From positions 1 through 32,561 of the forward strand of contig JAYZHY010000032.1 in assembly GCA_036166115.1 (NCBI GenBank): a DNA stretch of 32,561 nucleotides, given 5' to 3'. The notes under the pieces are model-generated. The model made no database searches and was not told the DNA's origin. It saw nothing but the letters and a program-made list of their open reading frames with translations. Of this stretch, positions 6,824 to 19,855 are shown piece by piece. Each line of letters begins with the position of its first letter. Within the stretch, counting starts at the first letter, position 1. Made by a program: the position numbers and the translations under genes. This stretch comes from Pseudomonadota bacterium. GTDB lineage: Bacteria; Pseudomonadota; Gammaproteobacteria; Steroidobacterales; Woeseiaceae.

Positions 6824-9256
6824 ATGATTTGGTTGACCCAAAAAAAATGCCTTAGGCTTAATTATTTTTTAGCAATTCTGTCATTTTCGATCATAACTGA
6901 TCCTATATTTTCTCAGGAAAATCCGGAATCCATTCAATTTCAATTAGACAGCAACCAAATCATAAATGTTCAAAAGAAAGACGTTAACGTTAAGATAAAA
7001 ATTGATGGAAAAATTGATGAGCCAGAATGGCAGGATATTACTTCCTATGATCCCTATAAAGTAACTAAACCGGATACCCTTGCCGACACATCTTACGAAA
7101 GCAATTTAAGATTCTTTTATACTGCCAATGGATTCTATATTTCAATGGATATGAAACAACCAAAAGACACCCTAGTTAAACGCTTCAAACCCAGAGATGA
7201 CTGGCAAACCCAATCGGATAAAACGGGATTTTCAATTGATACGTCTGGAGAGGGGAAATACGGCTATTGGTTCTCAGTATCATTAGGTGGCTCAGAAGGT
7301 GATGGCACATTGATGCCCGAAAAAATTTATACTTCTGATTGGGATGGTGCATGGTATGCCGCCACATCAGAGACAGAAGATGGCTGGTCCGCAGAGTTCT
7401 ATCTGCCATGGTCGCAAGTTGCGATGCCAAAAGACGCGGATGACCGAATTATAAATTTATATAGTTTCCGAGAAGTCGCTCATTTAAACGAGGAATGGGG
7501 ATGGCCAGCACTTCCCGAATCTATGCCTCAATTCATCAGCCTTTTTCAACCAACCAGAATGAATAACGTCAACCTCAAGCAACAATGGAGTGTATTTCCT
7601 TATGCTTCGGCATCCTACGATCGAATTGACAAAGAACAATCAAATAGAGCTGGTGCCGATCTTTTCTGGCGCCCTTCAACCAACGCTCAAATAACCGCCA
7701 CAATTAATCCAGATTTTGGTGCCGTTGAAGCAGATAATGTGGTGGTAAATTTATCGGCTAACGAAACATTTTTTCCAGATAAAAGACTCTTCTTTCAAGA
7801 AGGCAATGAAGTGTTTGTCACTTCCCCTAGAGCAAGCAATCATAACTGGGGGCGCAGCAGAGTCAGTATCATAAATACCCGACGCATTGGAAGCACGCCA
7901 GATCTGCCGTCACTACCAGAAGGCGTGAGTTTTTCTGAGCGCATTAAGAAAACCACCAAAGCAGATTTGACCGGCGCTCTAAAAACTACCGGTGAATTCA
8001 ATAAATTCCGTTATGGAATCCTTGCTGCCTCTGAAGATGACACCGATTTTAAGGCTGATGACGATAAAATATACAATCAGGTAGGTCGAGATTTTGGAGC
8101 ATTGAGACTCCTGTATGAAGATACAGATCAAGGAAAGACCAAAGGCTTAGGGTTTTTGTCAACCATAGTCACAAAACCCGATACGGATTCCGTGGTCAAT
8201 GCAGTCGACATCCATTACTTGAGCGAATCTGGGGCTTGGAAAGCAGATGGTCAATATATTCATTCTAAAACACATGAAGACGGTTCTGGCCAAGGAGGTT
8301 TCTTGGATTTAGTGTACGCGCCAACCAAGGGTAGAAGCAGTCAACTCAAACTGACTGTATTTGATAAAAATATGCAGATAAATGATTTTGGGTTCAATCA
8401 AAGACGAAATACGCGTGATGCTCAGTATAATTTCACAGCCATAAATTCAAATTCAAAACGCTTTAGAGACACCTTAATGAGTGGCTATGTTCGCTATGCT
8501 GAGAACTTCGATGGACATCGAACATCAAATGCCATTGGCGGTAATTTTGATGTGACTCTCAATAGTTTGAATAAAATTAAAGGGTCTTTTGCTCATTGGC
8601 CACTTCGATTTGAAGATCGAGAGAGTTACGGCAATGGAACTTTCAAGCTTCGACCCAGATCGAGACTCAGATTTGAATATTCCACAAACAAAGCAGAGAA
8701 AATAGCTTACGGTGCGACCGTCACCTACCAAGAAGAAGACATGAAGGGCAGGAAACTTGAGGGAGAGATTGAATATACATGGTACCCAAAAACTAATATA
8801 AGTTTCGATATGAAATTAAAATATGTTGACGGGAGTGGTGGTTGGTTACTTCACCAACAAAGTAAAGACTTCACTTCGTTTTATCATCAGAAATGGGAAC
8901 AAGAGTTTAAGTTCAATTACTTTATCAACGCCAAACAACAACTGAGCATTAATCTTCAATGGGTGGGCATACAAGCGCATGAAAATAAATTTTATGTTAT
9001 TGATGCCGATAACTATAGATTAAATGAAATAAATAAACCCTATGAAGCAAGCGATAACTTCAGCATCTCAGACCTAAATATACAATTACGCTATCGCTGG
9101 CAAATAGCCCCTTTGTCTGATGTTTACTTGGTTGCCACTAAAACAGGAGCACACAGAAAACAACTTACTGCATTCAGTGATTTATTTGATGACACCATGG
9201 ATAATCCCTTGAGCGATCAAATTATCTTAAAAGTTCGTTACCGTTTTGGTTCGTAA
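6824..9256 (+). CDS. Secreted CBM9-like / DUF5916-like protein, probable outer-membrane beta-barrel (paralog 1)
   Basis: 810 aa with a signal-like N-terminus. IDGKIDEPEWQD is the D-G-x-hydrophobic-D-E-x-x-W signature I associate with family-9 carbohydrate-binding-like domains. The long C-terminal part has alternating amphipathic strands and ends ILKVRYRFGS. The family name is from memory and not verified. Confidence 0.6.
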   Translation: MIWLTQKKCLRLNYFLAILSFSIITDPIFSQENPESIQFQLDSNQIINVQKKDVNVKIKIDGKIDEPEWQDITSYDPYKVTKPDTLADTSYESNLRFFYTANGFYISMDMKQPKDTLVKRFKPRDDWQTQSDKTGFSIDTSGEGKYGYWFSVSLGGSEGDGTLMPEKIYTSDWDGAWYAATSETEDGWSAEFYLPWSQVAMPKDADDRIINLYSFREVAHLNEEWGWPALPESMPQFISLFQPTRMNNVNLKQQWSVFPYASASYDRIDKEQSNRAGADLFWRPSTNAQITATINPDFGAVEADNVVVNLSANETFFPDKRLFFQEGNEVFVTSPRASNHNWGRSRVSIINTRRIGSTPDLPSLPEGVSFSERIKKTTKADLTGALKTTGEFNKFRYGILAASEDDTDFKADDDKIYNQVGRDFGALRLLYEDTDQGKTKGLGFLSTIVTKPDTDSVVNAVDIHYLSESGAWKADGQYIHSKTHEDGSGQGGFLDLVYAPTKGRSSQLKLTVFDKNMQINDFGFNQRRNTRDAQYNFTAINSNSKRFRDTLMSGYVRYAENFDGHRTSNAIGGNFDVTLNSLNKIKGSFAHWPLRFEDRESYGNGTFKLRPRSRLRFEYSTNKAEKIAYGATVTYQEEDMKGRKLEGEIEYTWYPKTNISFDMKLKYVDGSGGWLLHQQSKDFTSFYHQKWEQEFKFNYFINAKQQLSINLQWVGIQAHENKFYVIDADNYRLNEINKPYEASDNFSISDLNIQLRYRWQIAPLSDVYLVATKTGAHRKQLTAFSDLFDDTMDNPLSDQIILKVRYRFGS

Positions 9257-9280: not shown

Positions 9281-11695
9281 ATGAACTCTATCAAACCCAT
9301 CAACTTGGGAGGTATCTTAACGCTTTACTTATCCATATTCTTCTCATCAACACTAGCTGCACAAGACAATTCTGAGTCCCTTCAAATTTCTCTTAATGAC
9401 AGCAAAATCATCGATGTTCAACAACGAGATTTAGATGTTGAAATTAAAATTGATGGTAAGATTGATGAAGCTGCATGGCAAGATATTACTTCGTTTGAGC
9501 GAATGAAGGTATCAAAGCCAGACACCCTTAAAGATCCCATTTACAAAAGCATTGTGCGCTTTTTCTATACAGTAGATGGCTTCTATTTTTCTGTAGAGAT
9601 GGAGCAACCCAAAAACACGTTAGTAAAACGCTTCACCAATAGAGATGATTGGAGAACTAAATCCGACAAAGTATCTGTCAGTATAGATACCTCAGGTGAA
9701 GCTAAATATGCTTATTGGATGGCATTGTCTTTGGGTGATTCAGAAGGGGATGGAACTTTACTTCCAGAAAGAAGGTATAGCATGGATTGGGACGGTGCTT
9801 GGTATGGAGCCACAGCTGAAACAGACAACGGTTGGTCTGCTGAGTTCTATATCCCGTGGTCACAGATGGCAATGCCTAAAAAAACCGGTGATCGAATTAT
9901 TAATATTGAAACTCACCGCATGGTGGCTCATCTTAATGAAGAGTGGTCTTGGCCGCCACTCCCAGATTCTATCCCGCAATTTTTGAGTCTTTTCCAACCC
10001 ACAAGAATGAATAACGTAAACCTCAAGCAACAATGGAGTATCTTTCCATATATGTCAGTCACACGTGATCGGATTGATGATAAGACCGCATATCAAGCTG
10101 GGGCTGATTTCTTTTGGCGTCCCTCAACCAATGCGCAAATTACAGCAACTATTAAACCTGATTTTGGAGCTGTTGAGTCTGATAATGTAATCGTCAATTT
10201 GACCGCAAACGAGACATTCTTTCCTGAAAAAAGATTGTTCTTCCAAGAAGGAAATGAAATCTTTAACGCCACACCTAGATCGGGACATCATGGGGGGCGG
10301 AACCGTTTTACTGTTATCAACACGCGCCGCATTGGCAGTGCGCCAGCACTTCCTGAATTGCCTGAAAATGTAAGTATTTCACCTCGAGATCAAAAAACTA
10401 CAAAAGCAGATCTAATCGGTGCGCTTAAAACCACGGGCCAATACAAAAAACTGCGTTATGGTGTATTGACAGCCTTCGAAGAGGATACTAATTATCGAGC
10501 AGATAACAACCAAATATACAGTCAAGTTGGACGAGACTTTGGGGCACTGCGGTTACTTTACGAAGACAGCGAGCAGGGAGACATCAAAAGCCTCGGTTTA
10601 TTATCAACCATAGTGACTAAACCAATCAGTGATTCGGTGGTGCATGCCATGGATTTCCATTACTTAACTGCATCCGGTGCTTGGAAGCTTGATGGTCAAT
10701 ATATCAATTCTGATACAGCTGACGGCAAAGGGAATGGGGGTTACACGGATATTTCATTCACGCCAAAACGAGGAAAAAAACACGATTTAAAACTGACCGT
10801 TTTTGATAAAGGCATGCAGGTCAATGACTTTGGTTATAACCAAAGAAACAATATACGTGACGTCCAATATAATAATAATTTTATTAACTCGAATACAGGT
10901 CGATTTAAAAATAGAGTAATCAGAAATTGGTTTAGGTATGGAGAAAACCTTAATGGCCAACAAGTGACCGGTGGTTTTGGCTCAGGGGTAGAGCTGCTAT
11001 TTAATAACTTACATGAAATTAAAACTGGTTTTGCTTATTTTCCGGCTCGTTATGAAGATAGAAATAGTTTTGGTAACGGGACTTATAAAATCAAACAACG
11101 CAATCGATTTGAATTTGAATATTCCACGAATGAAGCTAAGAAAATATCAGTCAAAGGGAAAATAACTTATCAGGATGAGAGTTTATATGATGGAAAACTG
11201 ACTTCTAAACTGGAAATGCTGTGGTATTTAAAAAGCAATCTAAGTATTGACGCCGAATTAGAATATGTTGAAGCAAGCGGCTGGTTATTACACCAAGAAG
11301 ACACTAATTTTACAACATTTCGGGCGCAGAAATGGCAGCCTGAGATCAAGCTCAATTATTTTGCCACCGCAAAGCAACAACTAAGTCTCAACCTTCAATG
11401 GGTGGGGATTCAAGCTAATGAAGATAAATTCTATATCATCAATAATGATAATCTCAATCTAATAGAAACGACAAAGCCAGCTGGTGACTCTGATAATTTT
11501 AGTATCTCTCAATTGAATATTCAATTTCGTTATCGCTGGCAAATAGCACCTCTCTCTGATCTTTATATCGTTGCCACCAAAACTGGTTCAAACAGAAGTA
11601 CGCTAACTTCATTCAACGAATTATATGAGGACACTATGGACAATCCGCTCAGCGATCAGATTATTTTGAAGATTCGCTACCGTTTTGGATCTTGA
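9281..11695 (+). CDS. Secreted CBM9-like / DUF5916-like protein (paralog 2)
   Basis: 804 aa, colinear with the upstream gene over the full length. Shared blocks include IDGKIDE..WQDITS, DWDGAWY, FQPTRMNNVNLKQQWS, FWRPSTNAQITATI.PDFGAVE and LSDQIILK.RYRFGS. It has a signal peptide (LSIFFSSTLAAQD). Confidence 0.6.
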   Translation: MNSIKPINLGGILTLYLSIFFSSTLAAQDNSESLQISLNDSKIIDVQQRDLDVEIKIDGKIDEAAWQDITSFERMKVSKPDTLKDPIYKSIVRFFYTVDGFYFSVEMEQPKNTLVKRFTNRDDWRTKSDKVSVSIDTSGEAKYAYWMALSLGDSEGDGTLLPERRYSMDWDGAWYGATAETDNGWSAEFYIPWSQMAMPKKTGDRIINIETHRMVAHLNEEWSWPPLPDSIPQFLSLFQPTRMNNVNLKQQWSIFPYMSVTRDRIDDKTAYQAGADFFWRPSTNAQITATIKPDFGAVESDNVIVNLTANETFFPEKRLFFQEGNEIFNATPRSGHHGGRNRFTVINTRRIGSAPALPELPENVSISPRDQKTTKADLIGALKTTGQYKKLRYGVLTAFEEDTNYRADNNQIYSQVGRDFGALRLLYEDSEQGDIKSLGLLSTIVTKPISDSVVHAMDFHYLTASGAWKLDGQYINSDTADGKGNGGYTDISFTPKRGKKHDLKLTVFDKGMQVNDFGYNQRNNIRDVQYNNNFINSNTGRFKNRVIRNWFRYGENLNGQQVTGGFGSGVELLFNNLHEIKTGFAYFPARYEDRNSFGNGTYKIKQRNRFEFEYSTNEAKKISVKGKITYQDESLYDGKLTSKLEMLWYLKSNLSIDAELEYVEASGWLLHQEDTNFTTFRAQKWQPEIKLNYFATAKQQLSLNLQWVGIQANEDKFYIINNDNLNLIETTKPAGDSDNFSISQLNIQFRYRWQIAPLSDLYIVATKTGSNRSTLTSFNELYEDTMDNPLSDQIILKIRYRFGS

Positions 11696-11784: not shown

Positions 11785-12303
11785 TTGAGCGAAAATACAA
11801 AATTAAAAGAGATGTTAATAAACTACGCATCATCTCATCAACACAAAATCAACGTTCTATTTCATTTAATTGGTATTCCAACGATCATGCTGGGTATCTG
11901 TATACCTCTTAGTTGGTTAAATTACGAGGTCTTCGGCCAATCCTTCACCGCTGCTCATGCAGTCATATTTGGTTTATTTCTCTTTTATATGACACTAGAT
12001 ATAGCTTTCTCAATTGTTTTTCTCATACTGGGATTATTGATTAATCAGTACGCAATTAACTTAAGCTTGCAATCATCTGCTGGAACTATTGCTGCAATAG
12101 CTTTTTTTGGTGGTTACACATTACAATTTATCGGACATGCAATCGAGAAATCCATGCCTGTTCTAGTTAAACACCCAATCCAGGCAAATATCGCTGCGCC
12201 GTTTTTTGTGATTGTGGAAATCTTTGGAATCCTTAAACTGAGACAAGATTTATTTGAAGAAATAAATCTTCTTGTTCAACATCACAGAGAAAAAGAGAGT
12301 TGA
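11785..12303 (+). CDS. DUF962 / Mpo1-like membrane protein
   Basis: 172 aa with a TTG start. YASSHQHKINVLFHLIGIP near the N-terminus, a later GH..E motif (FIGHAIEKS) and 3-4 hydrophobic helices fit the Mpo1/YGL010w-like family as I remember it. Confidence 0.55.
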   Translation: MSENTKLKEMLINYASSHQHKINVLFHLIGIPTIMLGICIPLSWLNYEVFGQSFTAAHAVIFGLFLFYMTLDIAFSIVFLILGLLINQYAINLSLQSSAGTIAAIAFFGGYTLQFIGHAIEKSMPVLVKHPIQANIAAPFFVIVEIFGILKLRQDLFEEINLLVQHHREKES

Positions 12304-12339
12304 TTGTCTTAATATAAAAAGAAAGATTGAGGGGTTACT

Positions 12340-12414
12340 ATCAAAAACAAAAAGAATAAATCCAAAAGAATAACAAGGCGTGCCTTTATTGGAACGTCAG
12401 CTGGTGCCGCTGCA
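12340..12414 (+). other. In-frame twin-arginine leader upstream of the tracked start of the ThDP enzyme; no ATG/GTG/TTG is available
   Basis: The codons between the in-frame TGA (12328-12330) and ATG 12415 read G V T I K N K K N K S K R I T R R A F I G T S A G A A A. TRRAFIG is a near-consensus Tat motif. GAGGGG (12329-12334) sits 5 nt upstream of ATC 12340. Confidence 0.55.
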
Positions 12415-14244
12415 ATGCTAGGTAATGGCGCTAATTCGAAGGAATCAATACAATCCGATCAAAAAATAACTGCTCCAGCACCCTCAAAATCCGAGCTTGA
12501 TCGAGATGTTGGGAGCACTGCACCACCAAATAAAATCTTAAGAGCAGCTCAACGCCCCGGATCCGACTTAATGGTTCAAACATTAAGAGATCTCAATATA
12601 GAATTTATTGCTGCAAATCCTGCATCCAGTTTTGAAGGACTCCAAGAATCCATTGTAAATTATGGAACTCCTCCAAATACTATGCCAGAACTTATAACTG
12701 CGCTTCATGAGGAATCTGCTGTAGATATGGCGCATGGTTATGCAAAATCTCAAGGTCACCCTATGGCGGTTATGCTACATGGTACAGTTGGATTGCAACA
12801 CGCGTCCATGGCGATTTATCAATGCTATCACGATAAAACCCCCGTAGTTATAATAGTCGGTCGTGATGATAAATTTTTTCGACAAGAACAAACTGCAAAT
12901 GATATTGCCGGACTGACACGAGCATTTACAAAATGGGACGCCCAACCAACTACCCTTAAAGGCGCGTTAAGCGACATTCAGCAAGCTTTTAATGAGGCGA
13001 TCACGCCGCCAATGGGGCCAACAATTGTTGTCATTGACGTTGAGTTGCAGAAAGAAGAAGCTGGAGATTTAAAAATACCAAGCTACAAACCTCCAATTTT
13101 TCAAGCTATTAGCAAAAAGGAAGCAAAACAAATAGCACAAAACCTACTTAAAGCAAATAACCCAAGACTCCAAGTTGGCAAACTAAGAACGCCAAATGGC
13201 ATTGAGAATGCGATTAAATTAGCAGAATTATCAGGTTGCTCGGTAAGAACAGCTGCTACAGGCGGACCCATGAGCTTCCCAGAACGTCATCCGCAATGTG
13301 GCAAAGGTCAAGATGATAATTATGATTATATCCTGGGTTTAGAATCCGATGGTAGGGACACATCAATTCAAGGTCCAACATTGCTCTCAAATGCTAATAA
13401 TAGAGATTTATCTGATATTGGTTTTGGTTTCATTAGAGAACCAGTTGTTCCGCCAAGGAGGGATCTCTCCGGAAATAATGATATAACCTCTGACGCTGAA
13501 GTGAGCATCCCAATTATCATTGAACAATTTAAACGTATTCAAGCAAAAGAAGATGTAAATACTATCGCCAACAGACGAAAAATACTTGCTACTGCAAACT
13601 CACAGAATTACCGACAAGCTCTAAAAGTAACGCTTGAGAAAAAAAGAAAAGGATGGAATTCAAGTCCAGTGAGCCTGGCAAGGCTATATTCTGAGTTATG
13701 GCCACTTATCAAAGATTTAGATTGGTGCCTTTCATCGCCAACTGTTTTTTCAAGCAGGCATCACATTGGGCTATGGGATCACAATAAACCATACAGCTAT
13801 CTCGGCATGCATGGTGCCGGAGGTATTGGTTACTGTATAGGTGCTTCTGCTGGAGCAGGTCTAGCTGCCAGAAGTCGTGATAGGATTGTGATCAATATTC
13901 AATGTGACGGCGATCTGAATTATACACCAGGATCTTTGTGGACGGCAGCACATCACAACCTCCCTTTATTAACCATTATGCATAATAACCGAGGATATCA
14001 TCAGGAAGTCATGTATCTGCATTATATGGCTGGCGTCCGAGGAAGAGGCACTGATCGTATGCACATTGGTACGACTCTGCGAGAACCGTTTATCGATTAC
14101 GCTAAGTTAGCAGAAGCTTATGGGGTGCAGAGTGAAGGTCCAATAGATAACCCTGAAAACCTTACAGCCGCTTACAATCGAGGTATTGAATCCGTTTTAT
14201 CAGGCAAGCCATATCTAATTGACGTAATAACAGAACCAAGATGA
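12415..14244 (+). CDS. Thiamine-diphosphate-dependent enzyme (acetolactate synthase/pyruvate oxidase superfamily), probably Tat-exported; the true start is likely upstream (about 12340)
   Basis: 609 aa from the tracked ATG. The N-domain carries the catalytic-Glu region (ALHEESAVDMAHGYAK). The C-domain carries the ThDP/Mg motif CDGDL-(X)-MHNN (x-D-G, 24 residues, N-N). The stop overlaps the next start (ATGA at 14241-14244). Confidence 0.8.
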   Translation: MLGNGANSKESIQSDQKITAPAPSKSELDRDVGSTAPPNKILRAAQRPGSDLMVQTLRDLNIEFIAANPASSFEGLQESIVNYGTPPNTMPELITALHEESAVDMAHGYAKSQGHPMAVMLHGTVGLQHASMAIYQCYHDKTPVVIIVGRDDKFFRQEQTANDIAGLTRAFTKWDAQPTTLKGALSDIQQAFNEAITPPMGPTIVVIDVELQKEEAGDLKIPSYKPPIFQAISKKEAKQIAQNLLKANNPRLQVGKLRTPNGIENAIKLAELSGCSVRTAATGGPMSFPERHPQCGKGQDDNYDYILGLESDGRDTSIQGPTLLSNANNRDLSDIGFGFIREPVVPPRRDLSGNNDITSDAEVSIPIIIEQFKRIQAKEDVNTIANRRKILATANSQNYRQALKVTLEKKRKGWNSSPVSLARLYSELWPLIKDLDWCLSSPTVFSSRHHIGLWDHNKPYSYLGMHGAGGIGYCIGASAGAGLAARSRDRIVINIQCDGDLNYTPGSLWTAAHHNLPLLTIMHNNRGYHQEVMYLHYMAGVRGRGTDRMHIGTTLREPFIDYAKLAEAYGVQSEGPIDNPENLTAAYNRGIESVLSGKPYLIDVITEPR

Positions 14245-14669
14245 ATCAAGTTATAACGAAAATCATAAATAAACGAGCATGGATTATAATTTTTCTAGGT
14301 TTTCCGATCTTTGCCGCTTCTGCTGACCTAGATAATGGGGTTTCACTCTATCTGGATCATGGGTGTTACAGCTGTCACGGATACAATGGAACTGGCAGAT
14401 ATCCATTGGCAAATGATGTCAGTGGGATTATGACCAGCGAAGAACTTTTTATTATCTTCTTACGATTAAGAGCAGATTTGAACCCAATGACCCCAACAAA
14501 CAGTATGCCAAATTATAGCGAATCGGTTATTAGTGACAAAGAAGCCAAAGATATATACGCTTATATGAAAACTTTTAAAGACGATCCACCGGAAATTGAA
14601 AATATACCCGTGCTCAAAGAAATTCTAGACAATGCAAACAGGAACCAAAATGATGAACAAAATAAGTAA
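14241..14669 (+). CDS. Monoheme class-I c-type cytochrome, secreted
   Basis: 142 aa. It has a signal peptide (AWIIIFLGFPIFAASA), a single CXXCH heme-attachment site (CYSCH) and a downstream Met-Pro (NSMPNY) that is a candidate axial ligand. Confidence 0.8.
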   Translation: MNQVITKIINKRAWIIIFLGFPIFAASADLDNGVSLYLDHGCYSCHGYNGTGRYPLANDVSGIMTSEELFIIFLRLRADLNPMTPTNSMPNYSESVISDKEAKDIYAYMKTFKDDPPEIENIPVLKEILDNANRNQNDEQNK

Positions 14670-15900
14670 AATTTTAAAACTATTCTTCACATCTTTACTG
14701 ATAATTTATTTTTACCAGCCTCTGATGGCACATCACTCAGCAGTGGCTTTCGATAAAACTAAAACTGTGACCATTTCTGGAACAATAACTCGATCAGTAT
14801 GGCGCAATCCGCATATGGCCATCAATATGGATGTAACAAATGACGATGGCAGCTCAGATTTATGGAAAATTGAAGGGCCTGGTACAACTATTCTCTCTGG
14901 ACAAGGCTTTAATAAAAAAATGTTAACCGATGCCACAAAGTCAAAAGAAAATATTACTGTAACTGTTCATCCTCTTCGGACAGGTGCCCCAGGAGGATTA
15001 CTGCAAAAAATTACGCTTGCAAATAGTGAGACATACACAGTTGGCGAAGATTACGAAGAAGTGGCAACGAATGTTCAAGAAAGAATTATTCCTTCGCTTG
15101 TAGAATGGTCACCACCTCCAGAGGGTGAAACTATACAAGAAAGAGAAGCAAAAACTCGACCAAAACAGCTGCCATTATTGGCAAACAGCCCTCGTCAAAC
15201 AAGTTTGGGGGCACTTGACCCAGAAAATCTTAATAAAAAGAGGCCTCCTGCACCCTTTGATGTAACTGGTATATGGTCTTTTAGAGGCGAAGACAGAGGG
15301 GAAACAAACTATACATCGATGTATGGTTCTTATGAGTTCAAACCACATCCAAAATTTACTGAAAAAGGTCGCAAAACTCTGGACGAGTATCTCAGCTTTG
15401 CTCGTGCTGGTAAGCGATATTATGAGCCAACGGCAAGGTGTTATCCCGCTGGGATGCCTCGCCTAATGACTCGTTATGGTGCATTAATGATGCTGCAATA
15501 CCCTACTGCAATTTACATGGTTTCCAGGCTTAATAACGAATACAGAGTTATTTGGCTGGATGGTAGAGATAGAGAACCCGTTGATACTCGCGACAACAAT
15601 TGGAATGGCGAATCCATAGGTCATTGGGAAGGCGACACCTTGGTTGTAGAGACGCTTGGATTTACCGATGAAAATCATTTAATTCAACAAGGCATCTTTA
15701 CTGGCGATCAATTAAAAATAGTTGAACGTTACTCTATGCTAAATGATGGAAATACCTTACAAATTGATTTCACAATGACTGACCCAGAACACTGGGAAGG
15801 GGAATGGAAGCATACAAAATTTAGAGATCTAACATTACGCGCCGATATCAGGGAAGCAAATTGCATTGCGGCTGATAATGAATTACTGCCAGGTATGTAA
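14650..15900 (+). CDS. Secreted two-domain protein: N-terminal HHS domain (DUF6152-like) + linker + C-terminal two-cysteine domain (called X here)
   Basis: I prefer ATG 14650 (AGGA 7 nt upstream) to the tracked 14632. Signal peptide KILKLFFTSLLIIYFYQPLMA, then HHSAVAFDKT..W.NPH. After a ~65-aa low-complexity linker comes GIW...CYPAGMPRL...RVIWLDGR...GHWEGDTLVVET...ANC. The DUF6152 name is from memory. Confidence 0.7.
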   Translation: MMNKISKILKLFFTSLLIIYFYQPLMAHHSAVAFDKTKTVTISGTITRSVWRNPHMAINMDVTNDDGSSDLWKIEGPGTTILSGQGFNKKMLTDATKSKENITVTVHPLRTGAPGGLLQKITLANSETYTVGEDYEEVATNVQERIIPSLVEWSPPPEGETIQEREAKTRPKQLPLLANSPRQTSLGALDPENLNKKRPPAPFDVTGIWSFRGEDRGETNYTSMYGSYEFKPHPKFTEKGRKTLDEYLSFARAGKRYYEPTARCYPAGMPRLMTRYGALMMLQYPTAIYMVSRLNNEYRVIWLDGRDREPVDTRDNNWNGESIGHWEGDTLVVETLGFTDENHLIQQGIFTGDQLKIVERYSMLNDGNTLQIDFTMTDPEHWEGEWKHTKFRDLTLRADIREANCIAADNELLPGM

Positions 15901-15916
15901 GAATTAAGGAAATACT

Positions 15917-16948
15917 ATGTTTAACAAGAAACGATTAACCATATATTGTTATTTATTAAGCCTATTCTTTATATTTAATAATTCTTTTGTTCAAGCACAT
16001 CATTCTCACGCCAATCTTAACAGAGAAGACATAAGAATCTACAGCGGTGTCGTGACAAGATACAGCTGGACCATGCCTCATGTGTTTCTAAAAGTAAAAG
16101 CGCCTGATCAATCTGGCGAGGTGGTTGAATACAGTATTGAAATGCTGCATCCGCCTGCCATGGCTAAACGAGGTTGGAATAAAACGAGTTTCAGGCAAGG
16201 GGATCTCATTACTTGGGAAGGACCTCATGACTTTAATGAATCAAGACATTATACCGGATTGAGTTGGGCAGAAAGGAATGATGGTTCTCGGCTTTCAATG
16301 ACTGAACAAGAAGAAGGAGAAATCAATCCTTCTACCGACTTTTCAGGTTTATGGAAAAGATCCGATTACGACCCAGAGACAGGAAAAGCAAAATTTAATC
16401 CTCATTACAAACCGCCAAAAGGTTGGCCGCTTACAAAAGTCGGTCAAAACTTGGTTGATAATTTCCATGAAGATCAAAATCCCATGGTTAACTGCGGTAA
16501 CCCTGGCCCACCCAAAGCCATGATTGTGCCTTACCCAGTAATGATAACGAGGCCTAATGATGAAACGATTGTGTTTGAGAGAGAATTAATGCAAACAGCT
16601 AGAGTTATTCATTTGGATCACCAAAAAGAGAAGGGTGCCCCATCAAAACTTGGGCACTCAATCGGACGGTTTGAAGATGGCGGCTTGATTGTTAAAACCG
16701 ATAATTTTGTTGATGATCCATGGGGATCGCATACGGGTATAGATTCCAGTAAACAAAAACACTTAACTGAGAAATTTACTCTATCAGAAGACGGTTTGTT
16801 CTTATATGCAGAAATTACTGTTGATGATCCTGTGTATTTATCAAAACCACATACCTTTTATCATCGTTGGAAAAAGATTGCTGACCGTGAAGTCATTCAA
16901 GCGCCATGCACAATGGAAAGCGCAAAATTATACCTACAAGGCGGATAA
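15917..16948 (+). CDS. Secreted two-domain protein, paralogous architecture (HHS domain + X domain)
   Basis: 343 aa with AAGGA upstream. Signal peptide ...FVQA, then HHSHANLN...W.MPH. The C-terminal half has GLW...NCGNPGPP...RVIHLDH...GRFEDGGLIVKT...APC, colinear with the preceding gene but strongly diverged. Confidence 0.7.
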   Translation: MFNKKRLTIYCYLLSLFFIFNNSFVQAHHSHANLNREDIRIYSGVVTRYSWTMPHVFLKVKAPDQSGEVVEYSIEMLHPPAMAKRGWNKTSFRQGDLITWEGPHDFNESRHYTGLSWAERNDGSRLSMTEQEEGEINPSTDFSGLWKRSDYDPETGKAKFNPHYKPPKGWPLTKVGQNLVDNFHEDQNPMVNCGNPGPPKAMIVPYPVMITRPNDETIVFERELMQTARVIHLDHQKEKGAPSKLGHSIGRFEDGGLIVKTDNFVDDPWGSHTGIDSSKQKHLTEKFTLSEDGLFLYAEITVDDPVYLSKPHTFYHRWKKIADREVIQAPCTMESAKLYLQGG

Positions 16949-16955
16949 GAAATAA

Positions 16956-17786
16956 CTACATATCATTCTTATTGATTTTCATAGAAGCCACCAAGCAACC
17001 GCAAGCAAATTCTGGGATAGGTTTGTAAAAATAAATTTTTCCTTTTCCTCCTGCAGCACCTGCCACAGCAATTGATGTTCTTATTTCAAATGCGCCTTGA
17101 CCTGCTTTTGCTAAAATATCTTCATCTTTGTAATCAGTCATTGCACAACGATCATTCTTTTGCCAGTTACTAAGAAACTCCCTGTCCCATTCCTCATTTA
17201 TTTTGCCGCTATCAGGAGTGCATGGCCAATGTGAAGTCCCACCGGTACCAATTAAAGCTATTCTCTCTGGAATGCTTTCAAAAACTTCTCTAATAGCGAC
17301 ACCAAATTTATAGCTTCTGGAAAAAGGTGTTAAAGGAGGAGATTGACAATTTATATTGGCGGGGATGATTGGAATATCATAACTTGGTGTGAGGTGATGC
17401 AAAGGCACCATCATACCGTGATCAAATTTCCACTCCTCTGAATAAGAAACATCAATTTCATTTAAGAGTAACGAAATTATCCTTTTTGATAGCTCTGCAT
17501 CACCAGGTATTCTTACTTTCTCTATACCTAACCACTGTGAATCTTCAATTGGTCCTTCATAATATTGCCCCATTCCAATCGCATAGGTTGGCATATTATT
17601 ATTGAAAAAATTTGCATAATGCTCTGCAGAAATTATGAATATAGCATCAGGCTCCACTTCTTCAATTTCTCTTTTGAGTCGAGAAAATTGAATTTTTAAT
17701 TCAGCAAGATCATTTTGATTGGCTGCTTCTGGACGGCTGGTAATTCCAGGAGCATGGCAACAAATTCCCGCATACACCAGACTCAT
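16956..17786 (-). CDS. Class-III extradiol ring-cleavage dioxygenase (LigB/MhpB family)
   Basis: 276 aa. CCHAPGI (N-terminal metal His), IISAEHY, KFDHGMMVPL and IGTGGTSHWP match the LigB-family Fe(II)-ligand and active-site blocks (compare MhpB LSHSP, APDHY, VDHG, GSGGLSH). Confidence 0.75.
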   Translation of the reverse strand: MSLVYAGICCHAPGITSRPEAANQNDLAELKIQFSRLKREIEEVEPDAIFIISAEHYANFFNNNMPTYAIGMGQYYEGPIEDSQWLGIEKVRIPGDAELSKRIISLLLNEIDVSYSEEWKFDHGMMVPLHHLTPSYDIPIIPANINCQSPPLTPFSRSYKFGVAIREVFESIPERIALIGTGGTSHWPCTPDSGKINEEWDREFLSNWQKNDRCAMTDYKDEDILAKAGQGAFEIRTSIAVAGAAGGKGKIYFYKPIPEFACGCLVASMKINKNDM

Positions 17787-17826
17787 AAAAAGATCATCTT
17801 GTTAGCATTTATTTTAAACATAATGC

Positions 17827-18480
17827 TTATTTGTCAGTAATATTCTCAGCAGTAACGCCTTCGGCTTTTAAGGCAATCTTAGTGGCTTCTCTTGCCTCCA
17901 TCCGTTTGCGATGCGCCATCCAATTTGGCATATCAGCAACATGCTCTACAACATCTTCTCTTTGGCTCCAAATATGAAATACAAATAAATAAGCATCACA
18001 AACACTATAAACGTCACCCAACGCCCATTTTTTTCCTGACAGTCGCCTTTCAACCTCCATGAGTGTATTTTTTAGATTGGGTATGCCGACCTTCAATAGT
18101 TCCGAATACAATTCCTTGCTATCGACCAATAAATTCGGTCTAAATAAAGGTCGAAATGCAATGTGGACTGTACTTGATAGAAAATTCATCCATTCGTGTG
18201 CCCTTGCCCGAGACAAAGGGTCATTCTTAGGTATAAGCTCAACAGAAGCTTTATCAGCAATATAAGATAATATTGCGTGAGTTTCAGTTAACACTTTATC
18301 CCCCGTTAGAAGTGTCGGTATCTTGCCCCAAGGATTCATTTTCTTGTAAGCGCTTTCTTTATGCTCACCCTTTCTAATTCTCACTGGCATCGCTTCATAA
18401 GCGAGGCCAGATTCTTCCAGAGCAATGTGACAGGCAAGTGAACATGCCCTGGGGCTAAAAAATAGTTTTAAATCAGTCAT
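17827..18480 (-). CDS. Glutathione S-transferase
   Basis: 217 aa. The N-terminal thioredoxin-like part (LKLFFSPRACSLACHIALEE..., NPWGKIPTL, ETHAILSYI) and the helical C-domain are typical of bacterial beta-like GSTs. It lies 40 nt upstream of, and co-directional with, the dioxygenase gene. Confidence 0.8.
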   Translation of the reverse strand: MTDLKLFFSPRACSLACHIALEESGLAYEAMPVRIRKGEHKESAYKKMNPWGKIPTLLTGDKVLTETHAILSYIADKASVELIPKNDPLSRARAHEWMNFLSSTVHIAFRPLFRPNLLVDSKELYSELLKVGIPNLKNTLMEVERRLSGKKWALGDVYSVCDAYLFVFHIWSQREDVVEHVADMPNWMAHRKRMEAREATKIALKAEGVTAENITDK

Positions 18481-18648
18481 GTTCGATTCCTAATAATCTT
18501 ATATATTTCCATAATATGGCAAACGTTATCGTGATGTTTTTTAAACTCTAATCAAAAAATAAATTCGACTTTGGTCAATCCTACTCATAACATTAATATT
18601 TGCTATGCATTATTGAAAAATAACGTAAACATAAAAATACATAAAACC

Positions 18649-19449
18649 ATGAATATCTATAAAACTACAATAATATTCTTTATTTTCTTCTTGGGATCAG
18701 TTTCTGCTAAAGATGAACAAGAAATTCCCGATTGGAGTGGCATTTGGGAGCGATATGAAGACAATGGAGGAATGTTTGATGTGTCTACAACTAAACCTCC
18801 AGAAGGTCGTGCCGGCAGCCCAAATGTTAGACAATTTCCACCTTTGACTCCCCTTTGGGAAGAAAAATACAAGAAAAACCTAGCATTGGTTGCAAGAGAC
18901 AGATTGCCCGATCCAATATCCATTTGTGGAACACCAGCTGGCTATCCTCGACTGCTTGCTTTACCTGATGTCTATGAATTTATAGTGCGTCCTGAAAAAA
19001 CATGGATAGTTACTGAAAACGGGCCAAATATCATGAGAATCTATACAGATGGAAGAGGCCACCCCAAAGAAAATGAGCGCTGGCCAACCTACACTGGAGA
19101 ATCTGTAGGTTCATGGGAAGGGGATGTCTTGCATTTTAAGACAGTAAGCATGATTGGAGAAAAAAACACTGTTCTAGACAGGAGTGGAATGACCTTAAGT
19201 GAAAAAGCAACTATCTCAACCAGTATTTTTAAGAATGAAGCAGGCTTACTTCGCGCGGAATTAACGATAGTCGATCCAATTGCATTAACTCAACCATGGC
19301 ATGTAACTCGTCATTTCAGAAAACTGCCCAAAGAAACACGAATATTTGATTATGCTTGTGCTGAAAATAATCGGAACCCAATTACAAACACAGGAAAAAC
19401 GCTAACTCTTGGTCCAGATGGGATACCAATCGATAAGAACATCGAATAA
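18649..19449 (+). CDS. Secreted stand-alone X-domain protein (homologous to the C-terminal halves of 14650..15900 and 15917..16948)
   Basis: I prefer ATG 18649 (MNIYKTTIIFFIFFLGSVSA|KDE signal peptide) to the tracked non-ATG start at 18571. Motifs: GIW...ICGTPAGYPRL...RIYTDGR...GSWEGDVLHFKT...YAC. Confidence 0.7.
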   Translation: MNIYKTTIIFFIFFLGSVSAKDEQEIPDWSGIWERYEDNGGMFDVSTTKPPEGRAGSPNVRQFPPLTPLWEEKYKKNLALVARDRLPDPISICGTPAGYPRLLALPDVYEFIVRPEKTWIVTENGPNIMRIYTDGRGHPKENERWPTYTGESVGSWEGDVLHFKTVSMIGEKNTVLDRSGMTLSEKATISTSIFKNEAGLLRAELTIVDPIALTQPWHVTRHFRKLPKETRIFDYACAENNRNPITNTGKTLTLGPDGIPIDKNIE

Positions 19450-19459
19450 AGAGGTTATT

Positions 19460-19855
19460 ATGCTAATACATCGAATACATAAATACTGCTTTTTAATATT
19501 AAGCCTAATATTAATTTGTTGGGGAAATTTATACGCGCATCACTCAAGCGCAATGTTTGATAAAACACACGTCCTTAAAGTAAAGGCTGTTGTAAAAGAA
19601 TTTCAATGGGCCAATCCGCATGTTTGGATACAGATATACATCCCAAATCAAAATAACAAAGAAGAATGGAGCATTGAAGGAATAGGAATAAATACATTAT
19701 TTAGAAGAGGGTGGAGGCCAAATTCTTTCCAGCCTGGTGATGAAATAGACATTAGTTTCAACCCGATGCTTGATGGTTCTCATGCAGGGCTCTTTATTGG
19801 TGCCAGATTTGAAGATGGGAAAATATTAGGAAAGTGGGAGAATACGAATAATTAG
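19460..19855 (+). CDS. Secreted stand-alone HHS-domain protein (DUF6152-like)
   Basis: I prefer ATG 19460 (GAGG 5 nt upstream, 10 nt after the previous stop) to the tracked 19409. Signal peptide ...GNLYA, then HHSSAMFDKTHVLKVKAVVKEFQWANPHVWIQ. It is 131 aa, the size I recall for this family. Confidence 0.7.
   Translation: MLIHRIHKYCFLILSLILICWGNLYAHHSSAMFDKTHVLKVKAVVKEFQWANPHVWIQIYIPNQNNKEEWSIEGIGINTLFRRGWRPNSFQPGDEIDISFNPMLDGSHAGLFIGARFEDGKILGKWENTNN

What the first reader, a model, noticed from the sequence alone, without database searches (positions are those of the whole stretch)
12340..14669. ThDP enzyme with a twin-arginine leader, translationally coupled to a monoheme cytochrome c
Seen in sequence:
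- Catalytic-Glu block HEESAV.
- ThDP/Mg motif x-D-G-(24 aa)-N-N.
- An in-frame upstream peptide KNKKNKSKRITRRAFIGTSAGAAAM.
- An ATGA stop/start overlap with an ORF carrying a Sec signal, CYSCH and a downstream MP.

Established knowledge: the acetolactate synthase/pyruvate oxidase ThDP superfamily is classically cytoplasmic. The Tat pathway exports proteins folded around cofactors. CXXCH marks covalent heme c.

Inference: this is a periplasmic oxidative ThDP enzyme (2-oxoacid or aldehyde-forming) that passes electrons to a dedicated cytochrome c. I am not aware that such an arrangement has been characterised.
Basis: partly seen in the sequence, partly recalled or inferred. Interest (0 to 1): 0.7.

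Follow-up and report, generated by a model that had tools for sequence, protein, structure and literature searches.

The report
Exported thiamine enzyme paired with cytochrome c
A thiamine-diphosphate enzyme carries a conserved export signal for folded proteins and is always followed by its own small cytochrome c gene in more than 80 bacterial species; this looks like an uncharacterised kind of periplasmic oxidising enzyme.

Summary
Window 12340-14244 encodes a ThDP enzyme (Pfam N- and C-terminal ThDP domains, catalytic Glu124, D-G-X24-N-N). An in-frame twin-arginine leader (TRRAFIG) precedes it, and its stop overlaps (ATGA) the start of a Sec-signal monohaem cytochrome c (CYSCH, Met89).

An RRxFLK-type leader is present in 78 of 83 related loci from Gammaproteobacteria, Acidobacteriota and one Hyphomicrobiales. 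A cytochrome c gene directly follows the ThDP gene in all of them. It also follows four subfamilies of only 36-44% identity, including cultured Rhizorhabdus wittichii RW1.

Two corrections. The 634-aa frame has no ATG/GTG/TTG; in this Woeseiaceae clade an AUC/AUA/AUU codon behind a Shine-Dalgarno-like stretch is the likely start. The FAD-binding loops of pyruvate oxidase and acetolactate synthase are absent; the nearest solved relatives are FAD-free benzoylformate decarboxylase and benzaldehyde lyase.

Best reading: a periplasmic, flavin-free ThDP-dependent 2-oxoacid (or aldehyde):cytochrome c oxidoreductase. Substrate and electron transfer are inferred, not shown. Every source name seen was generic, and five completed literature searches found no description. 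Long DUF6152 proteins are frequent neighbours.

The parts
12329..12334 (+). Shine-Dalgarno-like GAGGGG, 5 nt before the proposed start
   Evidence: Read from the sequence. Purine-rich stretches sit at the same place in related loci: AGGTGG in L044, TAGGAA in L001 and L007.
12340..12342 (+). ATC, the probable non-canonical initiation codon of the ThDP enzyme
   Evidence: No ATG/GTG/TTG lies between the stop at 12328-30 and the RR codons. The aligned 'I-K' codon pair is ATA, ATC or ATT in at least 7 distinct Woeseiaceae-type sequences. Amino-acid conservation begins at this codon.
12340..12435 (+). Twin-arginine (Tat) leader, residues 1-32: Lys-rich n-region, TRRAFIG, uncharged h-region GTSAGAAAMLGNGAN
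   Evidence: RR is AGG CGT at 12376-12381. 78 of 83 related loci carry RRx[FLIMV][FLIMV]x followed by at least 12 uncharged residues, most often RRxFLK. Leader codons differ synonymously between lineages.
12340..14244 (+). ThDP-dependent enzyme, 634 aa as extended (609 aa from ATG 12415)
   Evidence: Pfam PF02776 and PF02775. Nearest solved sequences are benzoylformate decarboxylases, E 3.6e-27. The fold search returns benzaldehyde lyase, BFDC and AHAS (low-confidence model).
12559..12873 (+). N-terminal pyrimidine-binding (PYR) domain, residues 74-178, with catalytic Glu124 (12709-12711). Ser96 and His147 align with BFDC Ser26 and His70.
   Evidence: Pfam hit. HMMER alignments to BFDC chains 4q9d and 4mzx. 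These residues are invariant in alignments A1 and A2.
13774..14226 (+). C-terminal diphosphate-binding (PP) domain, residues 479-629, with the ThDP/Mg motif D523-G...N549-N550 (13906-13989)
   Evidence: Pfam PF02775. The motif is invariant in the family.
13981..14013 (+). Clade signature H548-N-N-R-G-Y-H554-Q-E556-V-M558, directly after the Mg motif
   Evidence: H548, H554, E556 and M558 are conserved in the cytochrome-linked Tat clades but in 0-10% of 20 leaderless relatives. The alignment to a BFDC chain shows a 4-residue insertion here. That this is the BFDC substrate-pocket position (A460/L461) is from my own knowledge.
14241..14244 (+). ATGA stop/start overlap between the ThDP gene and the cytochrome c gene
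   Evidence: The -4 overlap is kept in all Woeseiaceae-type loci. Most other loci have spacers of 1-32 nt by automated start choice, with a few overlaps of up to 26 nt and a few larger gaps.
14241..14669 (+). Monohaem class I cytochrome c, 142 aa. Signal peptide about residues 1-28 (..FAASA|D), CYSCH at 14364-14378, distal Met89 at 14505-14507.
   Evidence: Pfam PF00034 E 5e-10. CxxCH and a downstream MPx[FYW] are present in 83 of 83 partner ORFs; the His-to-Met distance is 38-52 residues.
14632..15900 (+). Long DUF6152 protein A (422 aa; start may be ATG 14650). Signal peptide, then mature N-terminus HHS.
   Evidence: Pfam PF19649 E 8e-21. AF2 model with mean pLDDT 72: beta-barrel N-domain with weak OB-fold-like matches and a C-terminal beta-barrel. 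It lies directly downstream of the pair in Woeseiaceae-type loci.
15917..16948 (+). Long DUF6152 protein B (343 aa), a paralogue with 27% identity to A
   Evidence: Pfam PF19649 E 4e-14. Alignment A3.
18571..19855 (+). Split version of the same module: a 292-aa protein related to long DUF6152 protein A but without a DUF6152 Pfam hit (18571-19449), plus a 148-aa DUF6152 protein (19409-19855)
   Evidence: phmmer hits of 1e-11 and 1e-12 to DUF6152 proteins A and B. Pfam PF19649 E 1e-26 for the 148-aa ORF and no hit for the 292-aa ORF.
16956..18480 (-). LigB-type extradiol dioxygenase (16956-17786) and glutathione S-transferase (17827-18480). These are lineage-specific neighbours, not part of the conserved core.
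   Evidence: Pfam. LigB is present in 5 loci and GST in 6-8 loci only.

Best explanation
A two-gene unit encodes a periplasmic redox enzyme.

Proposed mechanism:
1. The large subunit is a three-domain ThDP enzyme of the decarboxylase (BFDC/ALS/POX) superfamily. It folds and binds ThDP-Mg2+ at its dimer interface in the cytoplasm.
2. It is therefore exported folded through the Tat pathway, using a conserved RR leader. In this Woeseiaceae lineage the leader is translated from an AUC/AUA/AUU start.
3. The small subunit is a Sec-exported monohaem class I cytochrome c, matured in the periplasm.
4. In the periplasm the ThDP enzyme binds a 2-oxoacid (or an aldehyde), forming the hydroxyalkyl-ThDP enamine.
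5. With no flavin present, the enamine is oxidised in two one-electron steps by the partner cytochrome c. This resembles the way pyruvate:ferredoxin oxidoreductase passes electrons from the same intermediate to an Fe-S cluster.
6. The acyl-ThDP is hydrolysed to the carboxylic acid.
7. The reduced cytochrome c feeds the respiratory chain. In some lineages it may feed the neighbouring periplasmic DUF6152 proteins.

Shown here: domain content, the catalytic and cofactor motifs, conservation of the leader, strict adjacency of the cytochrome, and absence of the FAD loops.

Inferred: export, electron flow, substrate class and the hydrolytic step.
For: - **ThDP enzyme:** Pfam N- and C-terminal ThDP domains, Glu124 and the DG-X24-NN motif.
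- **Leader conservation:** RRxFLK-type leader in 78 of 83 loci from three phyla. Two exceptions are cut by a contig end, two miss the rule narrowly, and one is disrupted.
- **Leader is translated:** in the clade without a canonical start, the RR pair is encoded by AGG CGT, CGC CGA, CGG CGA, CGT CGA or AGA CGA. Over 17 leader codons there are 161 synonymous against 83 non-synonymous pairwise differences.
- **Cytochrome adjacency:** a cytochrome c ORF with CxxCH and MPx[FYW] directly follows the ThDP gene in every locus examined (85 of 85 including duplicates; 83 of 83 non-redundant).
- **Distant subfamilies:** the same Tat-ThDP plus cytochrome c pairing is found at 36-44% identity in P0123, P0128 (R. 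wittichii RW1), P0130 (dihaem partner) and P0133. Two leaderless relatives at 34-36% identity show no cytochrome c downstream.
- **No flavin:** the Gly-rich and RFxxR loops shared by IlvI, PoxB and Gcl are replaced by VGKL-R and LESDGRD. Pfam TPP_enzyme_M is not detected. The nearest solved relatives are BFDC and BAL; that these two are FAD-free is established knowledge.
- **Clade-specific residues:** H548, H554, E556 and M558 flank the ThDP/Mg motif at the active site. They are absent from leaderless relatives, consistent with a chemistry specific to the cytochrome-linked clades.
- **Established knowledge:** hydroxyalkyl-ThDP intermediates of non-redox ThDP enzymes are readily oxidised by one-electron acceptors such as ferricyanide. 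Tat exports cofactor-loaded, oligomeric proteins.
Against: - No biochemical data exist for any member.
- The substrate is unknown. Apart from DUF6152 proteins, no neighbour is conserved across clades.
- The AF2 model of the enzyme is poor (mean pLDDT 60.8). No electron path, docking site or active-site geometry could be examined.
- Absence of FAD is inferred from loop motifs, not from a structure.
- A ThDP active site is normally buried, so direct transfer to a haem in another protein needs a relay that I could not identify.
- The window gene lacks a canonical start. Initiation at AUC is inferred from conservation only.
- The leaderless comparison rests on two short contigs.
Confidence: 0.5

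Rival explanations
1. The enzyme is exported but not oxidative. It would be a periplasmic decarboxylase, lyase or carboligase like BFDC or benzaldehyde lyase. The cytochrome c would serve a different enzyme of the same pathway, such as an aldehyde dehydrogenase acting on the product, or have a structural role.
For: - The nearest characterised relatives are BFDC and BAL; that they are non-redox enzymes is established knowledge.
- The equivalents of BFDC Ser26 and His70 are conserved.
- No flavin or other redox cofactor site was found in the large subunit.
Against: - The cytochrome c is adjacent in every locus across three phyla and in four distant subfamilies. No third redox enzyme is conserved beside it.
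- The genes overlap or lie within about 30 nt in most loci, which suggests two subunits made together.
Confidence: 0.22
2. It is a pyruvate-oxidase-like flavoenzyme. The middle domain binds FAD, which relays electrons from ThDP to the cytochrome. This would be a periplasmic counterpart of PoxB, once called 'pyruvate dehydrogenase (cytochrome)'.
For: - It has the same three-domain superfamily fold.
- Tat export would also suit a flavoprotein.
- The distant subfamilies do give Pfam TPP_enzyme_M hits.
Against: - The Gly-rich loop (VGGGAI / CGSG / AGGGVI) and the RFxxR loop of IlvI, PoxB and Gcl are absent from all Tat-clade members aligned.
- The window protein gives no TPP_enzyme_M hit.
- Sequence similarity is highest to enzymes known to be FAD-free.
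Confidence: 0.1
3. In this window the leader is not translated. The protein would start at ATG 12415 (609 aa) and be cytoplasmic, with the RR peptide a decaying remnant.
For: - There is no ATG/GTG/TTG upstream of the RR codons.
- Gene callers chose downstream starts for all close relatives, giving 557-621 aa.
Against: - The leader is kept in frame, free of stops and conserved at the amino-acid level, with mostly synonymous codon change, in at least 7 distinct lineages.
- An SD-like stretch and an AUH-AAA codon pair sit at a fixed aligned position.
- A start at Met25 would remove the RR motif and most of the hydrophobic region while the Sec-exported cytochrome partner is retained.
Confidence: 0.05
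4. The pair is an electron-supply module for the neighbouring DUF6152 proteins rather than for respiration. On this reading the ThDP enzyme burns a cheap 2-oxoacid and the cytochrome c reduces a metal centre on periplasmic DUF6152 proteins. Fungal cellobiose dehydrogenase feeds lytic polysaccharide monooxygenases in a similar way.
For: - DUF6152-family ORFs lie within 6 kb in 33 of 82 loci. They are directly downstream in the Woeseiaceae-type clade.
- After the predicted signal cleavage, the mature proteins begin with invariant His-His-Ser, and a further invariant His61 follows.
- The N-domain model is a small beta-barrel.
Against: - Most loci have the pair without any DUF6152 gene nearby.
- Metal binding by DUF6152 is a guess. 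The fold matches are weak (E above 1e-3), and there is no PDB or further Pfam match.
Confidence: 0.1

Closest known systems
Benzoylformate decarboxylase / benzaldehyde lyase (FAD-free ThDP decarboxylase-family enzymes)
   Same: Best sequence and fold matches. It has the same three-domain layout and the same catalytic Glu. The equivalents of BFDC Ser26 and His70 are conserved, and no flavin loops are present.
   Different: - Only about 17-25% identity.
- The NCBIfam BFDC model scores 151 bits against a cut-off of 493.
- A simple positional alignment puts Ser342 at the position of BFDC His281.
- A 4-residue insertion with His, Glu and Met lies where I place the BFDC substrate pocket.
- It has a Tat leader, a roughly 45-residue N-terminal extension and an obligatory cytochrome c partner.
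- BFDC and BAL are cytoplasmic and non-redox.
Pyruvate oxidase PoxB (pyruvate:quinone oxidoreductase, formerly 'pyruvate dehydrogenase (cytochrome)')
   Same: A ThDP enzyme of the same superfamily that oxidatively decarboxylates a 2-oxoacid and feeds the respiratory chain.
   Different: PoxB uses FAD, sits on the cytoplasmic face of the membrane and reduces quinone. Here the FAD loops are absent, the protein has a Tat leader, and the candidate acceptor is a soluble periplasmic cytochrome c.
Pyruvate:ferredoxin oxidoreductase and other 2-oxoacid:ferredoxin oxidoreductases
   Same: The proposed chemistry is the same: one-electron oxidation of hydroxyalkyl-ThDP without a flavin, through a radical intermediate.
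   Different: The protein family and fold arrangement differ. PFOR has Fe-S clusters within the enzyme, is cytoplasmic, needs CoA and is usually oxygen-sensitive. No Fe-S motif is seen here.
Periplasmic dehydrogenase-cytochrome c pairs (PQQ alcohol/methanol dehydrogenases with cytochrome c; flavocytochrome c sulfide dehydrogenase; membrane-bound FAD sugar dehydrogenases with a Tat-signal subunit and a cytochrome c subunit)
   Same: The same logic: a cofactor-bearing catalytic subunit in the periplasm, a dedicated c-type cytochrome encoded next to it, and electrons passed to the respiratory chain.
   Different: The catalytic cofactor would be ThDP. To my knowledge, and in the five literature searches that completed, ThDP has not been reported for a periplasmic dehydrogenase.

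Membership tests
ThDP-dependent decarboxylase (POX/ALS/BFDC) superfamily | N-terminal PYR domain with the cofactor-activating glutamate | tested here: met
   PF02776 E 2.5e-17. Glu124 aligns with BFDC Glu47 and is invariant.
ThDP-dependent decarboxylase (POX/ALS/BFDC) superfamily | C-terminal PP domain with the GDG-X(24-27)-NN ThDP/Mg2+ motif | tested here: met
   PF02775 E 4e-20. The motif is C-D523-G-D...N549-N550; D, G and NN are invariant, and the first Gly is Cys, Gly or Thr within the clade.
ThDP-dependent decarboxylase (POX/ALS/BFDC) superfamily | Central Rossmann-like middle domain | tested here: inconclusive
   There is no PF00205 hit for the window protein, but there are hits in distant Tat-clade members. 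Whole-chain fold matches to BAL, BFDC and AHAS reach TM 0.5-0.65 on a low-confidence model.
Pyruvate oxidase / acetohydroxyacid synthase type flavin-binding ThDP enzymes | FAD-contacting Gly-rich loop after the first middle-domain strand, and the RFxxR loop | tested here: not met
   IlvI has VGGGAI / RFDDR, PoxB has CGSG / QFPYR and Gcl has AGGGVI / RFANR. The window protein has VGKL-R / ESDGRD, and other Tat-clade members are similar. That these loops contact FAD is established structural knowledge, not tested here.
Biosynthetic acetolactate synthase large subunit (the name given by several sources) | Score above the curated equivalog cut-off | tested here: not met
   TIGR00118 scores 97 bits against a cut-off of 538. 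All ALS models are far below their cut-offs.
Benzoylformate decarboxylase | Curated model score, and catalytic Ser26 / His70 / His281 | tested here: not met
   NF005485 scores 151 bits against a cut-off of 493. Ser96 and His147 align with Ser26 and His70. The region of His281 is not aligned by HMMER; a simple positional alignment gives Ser342.
Tat (twin-arginine) exported proteins | N-terminal S/T-R-R-x-F-L-K motif followed by an uncharged, weakly hydrophobic stretch | tested here: met
   The window has T-R-R-A-F-I-G followed by 19 uncharged residues. 78 of 83 relatives pass the rule, and 55 have the exact FLK.
Tat (twin-arginine) exported proteins | Export that depends on TatABC; periplasmic location | not testable with these tools
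   This needs fractionation, reporter fusions or a tat mutant. SignalP and TatP were not available.
Class I c-type cytochromes | Sec signal, a single CxxCH, and a distal Met about 40-50 residues downstream | tested here: met
   PF00034 E 5e-10. C42YSCH46 and Met89-Pro are present; both motifs occur in 83 of 83 partner ORFs.
DUF6152 (PF19649) | Pfam model above the gathering score | tested here: met
   74.4, 52.9 and 93 bits against a cut-off of 27 for the ORFs at 14632, 15917 and 19409.

The most novel reading that the evidence does not exclude
This would be the first periplasmic ThDP enzyme class. On this reading it is a flavin-free ThDP dehydrogenase whose enamine intermediate is oxidised directly by a dedicated c-type cytochrome. 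That would let soil Acidobacteriota and marine and sediment Gammaproteobacteria respire 2-oxoacids or aldehydes outside the cytoplasm. In some lineages the electrons might go to N-terminal-histidine DUF6152 proteins, a possible bacterial analogue of the cellobiose dehydrogenase-LPMO couple.
Probability: 0.35. Interest if true: 0.85.

Novelty: new variant of a known kind. Interest (0 to 1): 0.68.

Why it matters
ThDP enzymology has so far been described for cytoplasmic or organellar enzymes. The known oxidative versions hand electrons to FAD, lipoamide or Fe-S clusters. A Tat-exported, flavin-free ThDP enzyme wired to a cytochrome c would add a new compartment and a new electron acceptor to this cofactor's repertoire.

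It would also define a new periplasmic dehydrogenase type beside the PQQ, flavin and molybdenum ones. It could explain how abundant uncultured soil and marine bacteria gain energy from small oxo-acids or aldehydes without importing them.

The family is large: 171 species-level genomes in one scan, and 401 clusters at E below 1e-30 among 50%-identity representatives. Wherever a source name was seen, it was 'acetolactate synthase-like' or 'thiamine pyrophosphate-binding protein'. Close relatives are often truncated by gene callers so that the export signal is lost.

A cultured carrier of a related subfamily, Rhizorhabdus wittichii RW1, makes the idea directly testable.

Tried and rejected
- **AF2 model of the ThDP enzyme:** built from a 20-sequence alignment, it gave mean pLDDT 60.8, with the family-specific segments below 50. 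It was usable only to confirm the overall fold, not for active-site or docking analysis.
- **DUF6152 protein A:** the fold search gave only weak OB-fold and avidin-like matches (E above 1e-3). A profile search of PDB sequences gave nothing. Pfam at E up to 10 found nothing for the C-terminal parts or for the 292-aa ORF.
- **Neighbour clustering across 82 loci:** it found no conserved partner other than the cytochrome c and the DUF6152 family. Other clusters were lineage-specific or were antisense artefacts in high-GC genomes.
- **NHL-repeat beta-propeller beside the pair in 9 loci:** I tested the idea that it is a glyoxylate-releasing amidating lyase. It matches only generic NHL repeats, so I dropped the idea.
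- **Rfam scan of the window:** no RNA family reached its gathering score, so no TPP riboswitch was detected.
- **Promoter and terminator scan:** nothing above the shuffled background.
- **Literature:** five searches ran and found no description of such a system or of DUF6152 (two hits read were irrelevant). In particular, papers on R. wittichii RW1 could not be screened.
- **Metagenome scan:** it added only 13 loci.


Full report
**1. What is in the window**

The ORF tool starts the ThDP gene at ATG 12415 (609 aa). The frame is open from the stop TGA at 12328-12330. The extra 25 codons read IKNKKNKSKRITRRAFIGTSAGAAA.

Pfam finds the N-terminal (residues 74-178, E 2.5e-17) and C-terminal (479-629, E 4e-20) ThDP domains. 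It finds no middle-domain hit. HEESAV is at residues 123-128, and Glu124 aligns with the cofactor-activating Glu47 of benzoylformate decarboxylase (BFDC). His147 aligns with BFDC His70 and Ser96 with Ser26. The Mg/ThDP motif is C-D523-G-D...N549-N550.

The stop TGA (14242-14244) overlaps the ATG (14241-14243) of a 142-aa ORF. That ORF has a signal peptide, C42YSCH46 and Met89-Pro, and matches Pfam Cytochrom_C at E 5e-10.

**2. Is the leader real? Comparative test**

Close relatives (77-83% identity; source names 'Woeseiaceae bacterium') were called at 557-621 aa, without the leader. Relatives at 67-70% identity start with ATG and carry M...(L/V)(T/S)RR(A/G)F(I/L)G.

A scan of one genome per species found 171 genomes with a relative. 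I analysed the 80 best loci. They come from Woeseiaceae and other Gammaproteobacteria (Pseudomonadales, Steroidobacteraceae, Pseudohongiella), from Acidobacteriota (Bryobacterales, Terriglobia, Vicinamibacterales) and from one Hyphomicrobiales. One record is labelled Cellulomonas. All are uncultured genomes (MAGs or single-cell assemblies).

- Extending each match upstream in frame shows an RR leader in essentially all loci.
- 78 of 83 non-redundant loci pass the rule 'RRx[FLIMV][FLIMV]x plus at least 12 uncharged residues'; 55 have the textbook RRxFLK.
- Of the five failures, two are cut by contig ends, two miss the rule narrowly and one is disrupted.

**3. The start codon**

In the window and in the other AT-rich Woeseiaceae-type loci, no ATG, GTG or TTG lies between the upstream stop and the RR codons. 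These loci are L001/L007/L096, L006/L095/L101, L009/L097, L044 and L098. The exception is L094, which has a TTG five codons before the aligned Ile.

All of them have an Ile codon followed by AAA at one aligned position: ATC in the window, ATT in L094 and L098, ATA in the rest. It sits a few nucleotides after a purine-rich stretch (GAGGGG, AGGTGG, TAGGAA). Amino-acid conservation starts at that codon, while the sequence upstream of it is unrelated between loci.

The leader is clearly under protein-level selection. The RR pair is encoded by AGG CGT, CGC CGA, CGG CGA, CGT CGA or AGA CGA. Over 17 leader codons, pairwise differences are 161 synonymous against 83 non-synonymous.

I conclude that the leader is translated and that initiation is most likely at AUH. 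This is an inference; no tool here can show initiation. The relative at 71% identity (L099) uses ATG at the equivalent place.

**4. Is the cytochrome c a dedicated partner?**

I searched stop-to-stop ORFs of all loci with the window proteins. A cytochrome c homologue directly follows the ThDP gene in every locus (85 of 85 with duplicates; 83 non-redundant).

- The spacing is a 4-nt overlap in the Woeseiaceae-type loci. In most others it is a 1-32 nt spacer by automated start choice, with a few overlaps of up to 26 nt and a few larger gaps.
- All 83 carry CxxCH and a downstream MPx[FYW] 38-52 residues after the haem histidine. 77 keep a D-I-Y-A-Y-I-like motif.

The search of 1.84 billion representatives shows further Tat-leader ThDP clusters at 36-44% identity, and leaderless relatives from about 34%. 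Context look-ups gave these results:

| Protein | Identity to window | Downstream gene |
|---|---|---|
| P0123 | 44% | cytochrome c, 124 aa |
| P0128 (Rhizorhabdus wittichii RW1, ABQ67889.1) | 38% | cytochrome c, 121 aa (overlapping); a 178-aa hydrophobic protein lies upstream (overlapping) |
| P0130 | 39% | dihaem cytochrome c, 234 aa |
| P0133 | 36% | cytochrome c, 125 aa |
| P0126 | 39% | contig ends after the gene |
| P0134 (leaderless) | 34% | none called |
| P0141 (leaderless) | 36% | convergent epimerase gene |

The leaderless sample is small and the contigs are short. The second refutation criterion (cytochrome c not syntenic) is also not met. The pairing is older than the family that contains the window gene.

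**5. What kind of ThDP enzyme?**

By sequence, the nearest solved structures are BFDCs (E 3.6e-27 and weaker), followed by acetohydroxyacid synthases. No NCBIfam equivalog is reached. The best is the uncharacterised PRK08327 model at 156 bits against a cut-off of 456; BFDC scores 151 against 493 and ALS 97 against 538.

The AF2 model is of low confidence (mean pLDDT 60.8). It still matches benzaldehyde lyase, BFDC, AHAS and glyoxylate carboligase over the whole chain.

- The three flavoenzymes share a Gly-rich loop after the first strand of the middle domain (VGGGAI, CGSG, AGGGVI). They also share an [RQ]FxxR loop (RFDDR, QFPYR, RFANR).
- The Tat clade has VGKL-R or ADRLAR, and LESDGRD or LELTDFW, at those places.
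- That these loops contact FAD is established structural knowledge.

On that basis the enzyme is most likely flavin-free, like BFDC and BAL.

Residues conserved in the cytochrome-linked clades but not in 20 leaderless relatives are M78, D188, E335, H539, H548, H554, E556, M558 and G570. Several of them cluster in the signature MHNNRGYHQEVMY, directly after the Mg motif. The alignment to a BFDC chain shows a four-residue insertion there. From my own knowledge this corresponds to the BFDC substrate-pocket position (A460/L461).

**6. Mechanism proposed**

The ThDP-Mg site of this superfamily lies between two subunits, and the cofactor is made in the cytoplasm. This explains export of a folded dimer by Tat (established knowledge applied here).

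A cytochrome c that is always encoded next to the enzyme, and often translationally coupled to it, is most simply its redox partner. With no flavin, the hydroxyalkyl-ThDP enamine formed from a 2-oxoacid (or from an aldehyde) would be oxidised in one-electron steps by the haem protein. The acyl-ThDP would then be hydrolysed. PFOR does the first step with Fe-S clusters, and ferricyanide does it artificially with non-redox ThDP enzymes.

I put about 0.9 on 'Tat-exported ThDP enzyme with a dedicated cytochrome c partner' and about 0.5 on the electron-transfer mechanism. The substrate is open. BFDC-like Ser and His residues suggest a 2-oxoacid carboxylate pocket, but neighbouring genes give no consistent clue.

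**7. Surroundings**

In the window the pair is followed by several related genes.

- Two long DUF6152 proteins lie at 14632-15900 and 15917-16948.
- On the other strand are a LigB-type dioxygenase and a GST.
- A split DUF6152 module follows at 18571-19449 and 19409-19855.
- An Mpo1-like gene precedes the pair, and two DUF5916 paralogues lie further upstream.

DUF6152-family ORFs occur within 6 kb of the pair in 33 of 82 loci. These include Acidobacteriota and the Hyphomicrobiales locus. They are directly downstream throughout the Woeseiaceae-type clade.

The long form has a signal peptide, and its mature N-terminus is invariant His-His-Ser, with a further invariant His61. The AF2 model (mean pLDDT 72) has a small beta-barrel N-domain and a C-terminal beta-barrel. 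Fold matches to OB-fold and avidin-like structures are only weak.

An N-terminal-histidine metal site is a speculation. If it were real, the pair might feed electrons to these proteins. LigB and GST are restricted to a few gammaproteobacterial loci and are not part of the core.

**8. Comparison with what is known, and novelty**

The enzyme is a member of the ThDP decarboxylase superfamily. It fails the tests for ALS, BFDC and the flavin-binding POX type.

It works like a periplasmic dehydrogenase-cytochrome c pair (the PQQ and flavocytochrome types), but with ThDP as the catalytic cofactor. Its chemistry would be like PFOR or PoxB, but without Fe-S clusters or FAD.

Five literature searches that ran found nothing on such a system or on DUF6152. 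Later searches failed technically, so the literature check is incomplete. To my knowledge no periplasmic ThDP enzyme has been characterised.

All source names seen are generic. Close relatives are often mis-started, so the export signal is invisible in databases.

I class this as a new variant of a known kind: a ThDP-dependent 2-oxoacid oxidoreductase with a new compartment and a new acceptor. Interest is 0.68. The pattern is very robust and surprising for the field, and R. wittichii RW1 offers a direct experimental handle. Function and substrate are still inferred.

Noticed in passing
window 12329-12342; L001 7933-7946; L044 5980-5995; L094, L098: A whole Woeseiaceae-type clade appears to start this Tat-substrate gene at an Ile codon (ATC, ATA or ATT) followed by AAA, a few nt after an SD-like stretch. 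No canonical start lies upstream of the RR motif, except a TTG five codons upstream in L094. All three AUH codons occur at the same aligned position in different lineages.
   Followed up: partly
public protein clusters P0001-P0116: Gene callers truncated the close relatives to 557, 579, 584, 591, 609 or 620/621 aa by choosing internal ATG or TTG codons. The Tat leader is therefore missing from the database entries of this clade.
   Followed up: yes
window 14632-15900, 15917-16948, 19409-19855: After the predicted signal cleavage, the DUF6152 proteins begin with invariant His-His-Ser, and another invariant His lies about 27 residues later. The N-domain is modelled as a small beta-barrel with weak OB-fold-like matches. 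A metal-binding N-terminal histidine site is possible but untested.
   Followed up: partly
window 18571-19449 with 19409-19855, compared with 14632-15900: The same two-part module exists fused and split. The fused form is the long DUF6152 protein with a C-terminal barrel domain. The split form is a 292-aa protein related to long protein A (no DUF6152 Pfam hit) plus a 148-aa DUF6152 protein. Split pairs also lie near the ThDP-cytochrome pair in Acidobacteriota loci (L035, L043, L057, L073).
   Followed up: partly
L087 3465-6324 (Rhizorhabdus wittichii RW1, CP000699.1 about 1694064-1696923): A cultured bacterium carries a three-gene version: a 178-aa hydrophobic protein, a Tat-ThDP enzyme (652 aa) and a cytochrome c (121 aa). 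All start/stop junctions overlap. An alpha/beta-hydrolase, a thiolase and an acyl-CoA synthetase gene follow.
   Followed up: partly
L051 5848-10566: There are two ThDP-cytochrome c pairs in tandem, in the order ThDP1-cyt c1-cyt c2-ThDP2, so the second pair is in reversed gene order.
   Followed up: no
L089 532-3160: One distant subfamily (P0130) pairs the Tat-ThDP enzyme with a 234-aa dihaem cytochrome c instead of a monohaem one.
   Followed up: no
window 11785-12303: An Mpo1-like gene (DUF962 family, named after a 2-hydroxy fatty acid dioxygenase) lies 36 nt upstream on the same strand. It also lies inside the cluster in L001, L006 and L007. I note from my own knowledge that alpha-oxidation elsewhere uses a ThDP lyase. 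The link is lineage-specific and may be coincidental.
   Followed up: no
window 6824-9256 and 9281-11695: Two tandem paralogous genes of about 800 aa match DUF5916. The second has a hydrophobic N-terminal stretch that looks like a signal peptide. Their function is unknown.
   Followed up: no
ThDP protein residues 630-634 (window 14227-14241): The very C-terminus, (I/V)T(E/Q)PR, is conserved in most Tat-clade subfamilies aligned (RW1 has HAEAR). It differs in the leaderless relative P0141 and in E. coli IlvI and PoxB.
   Followed up: no
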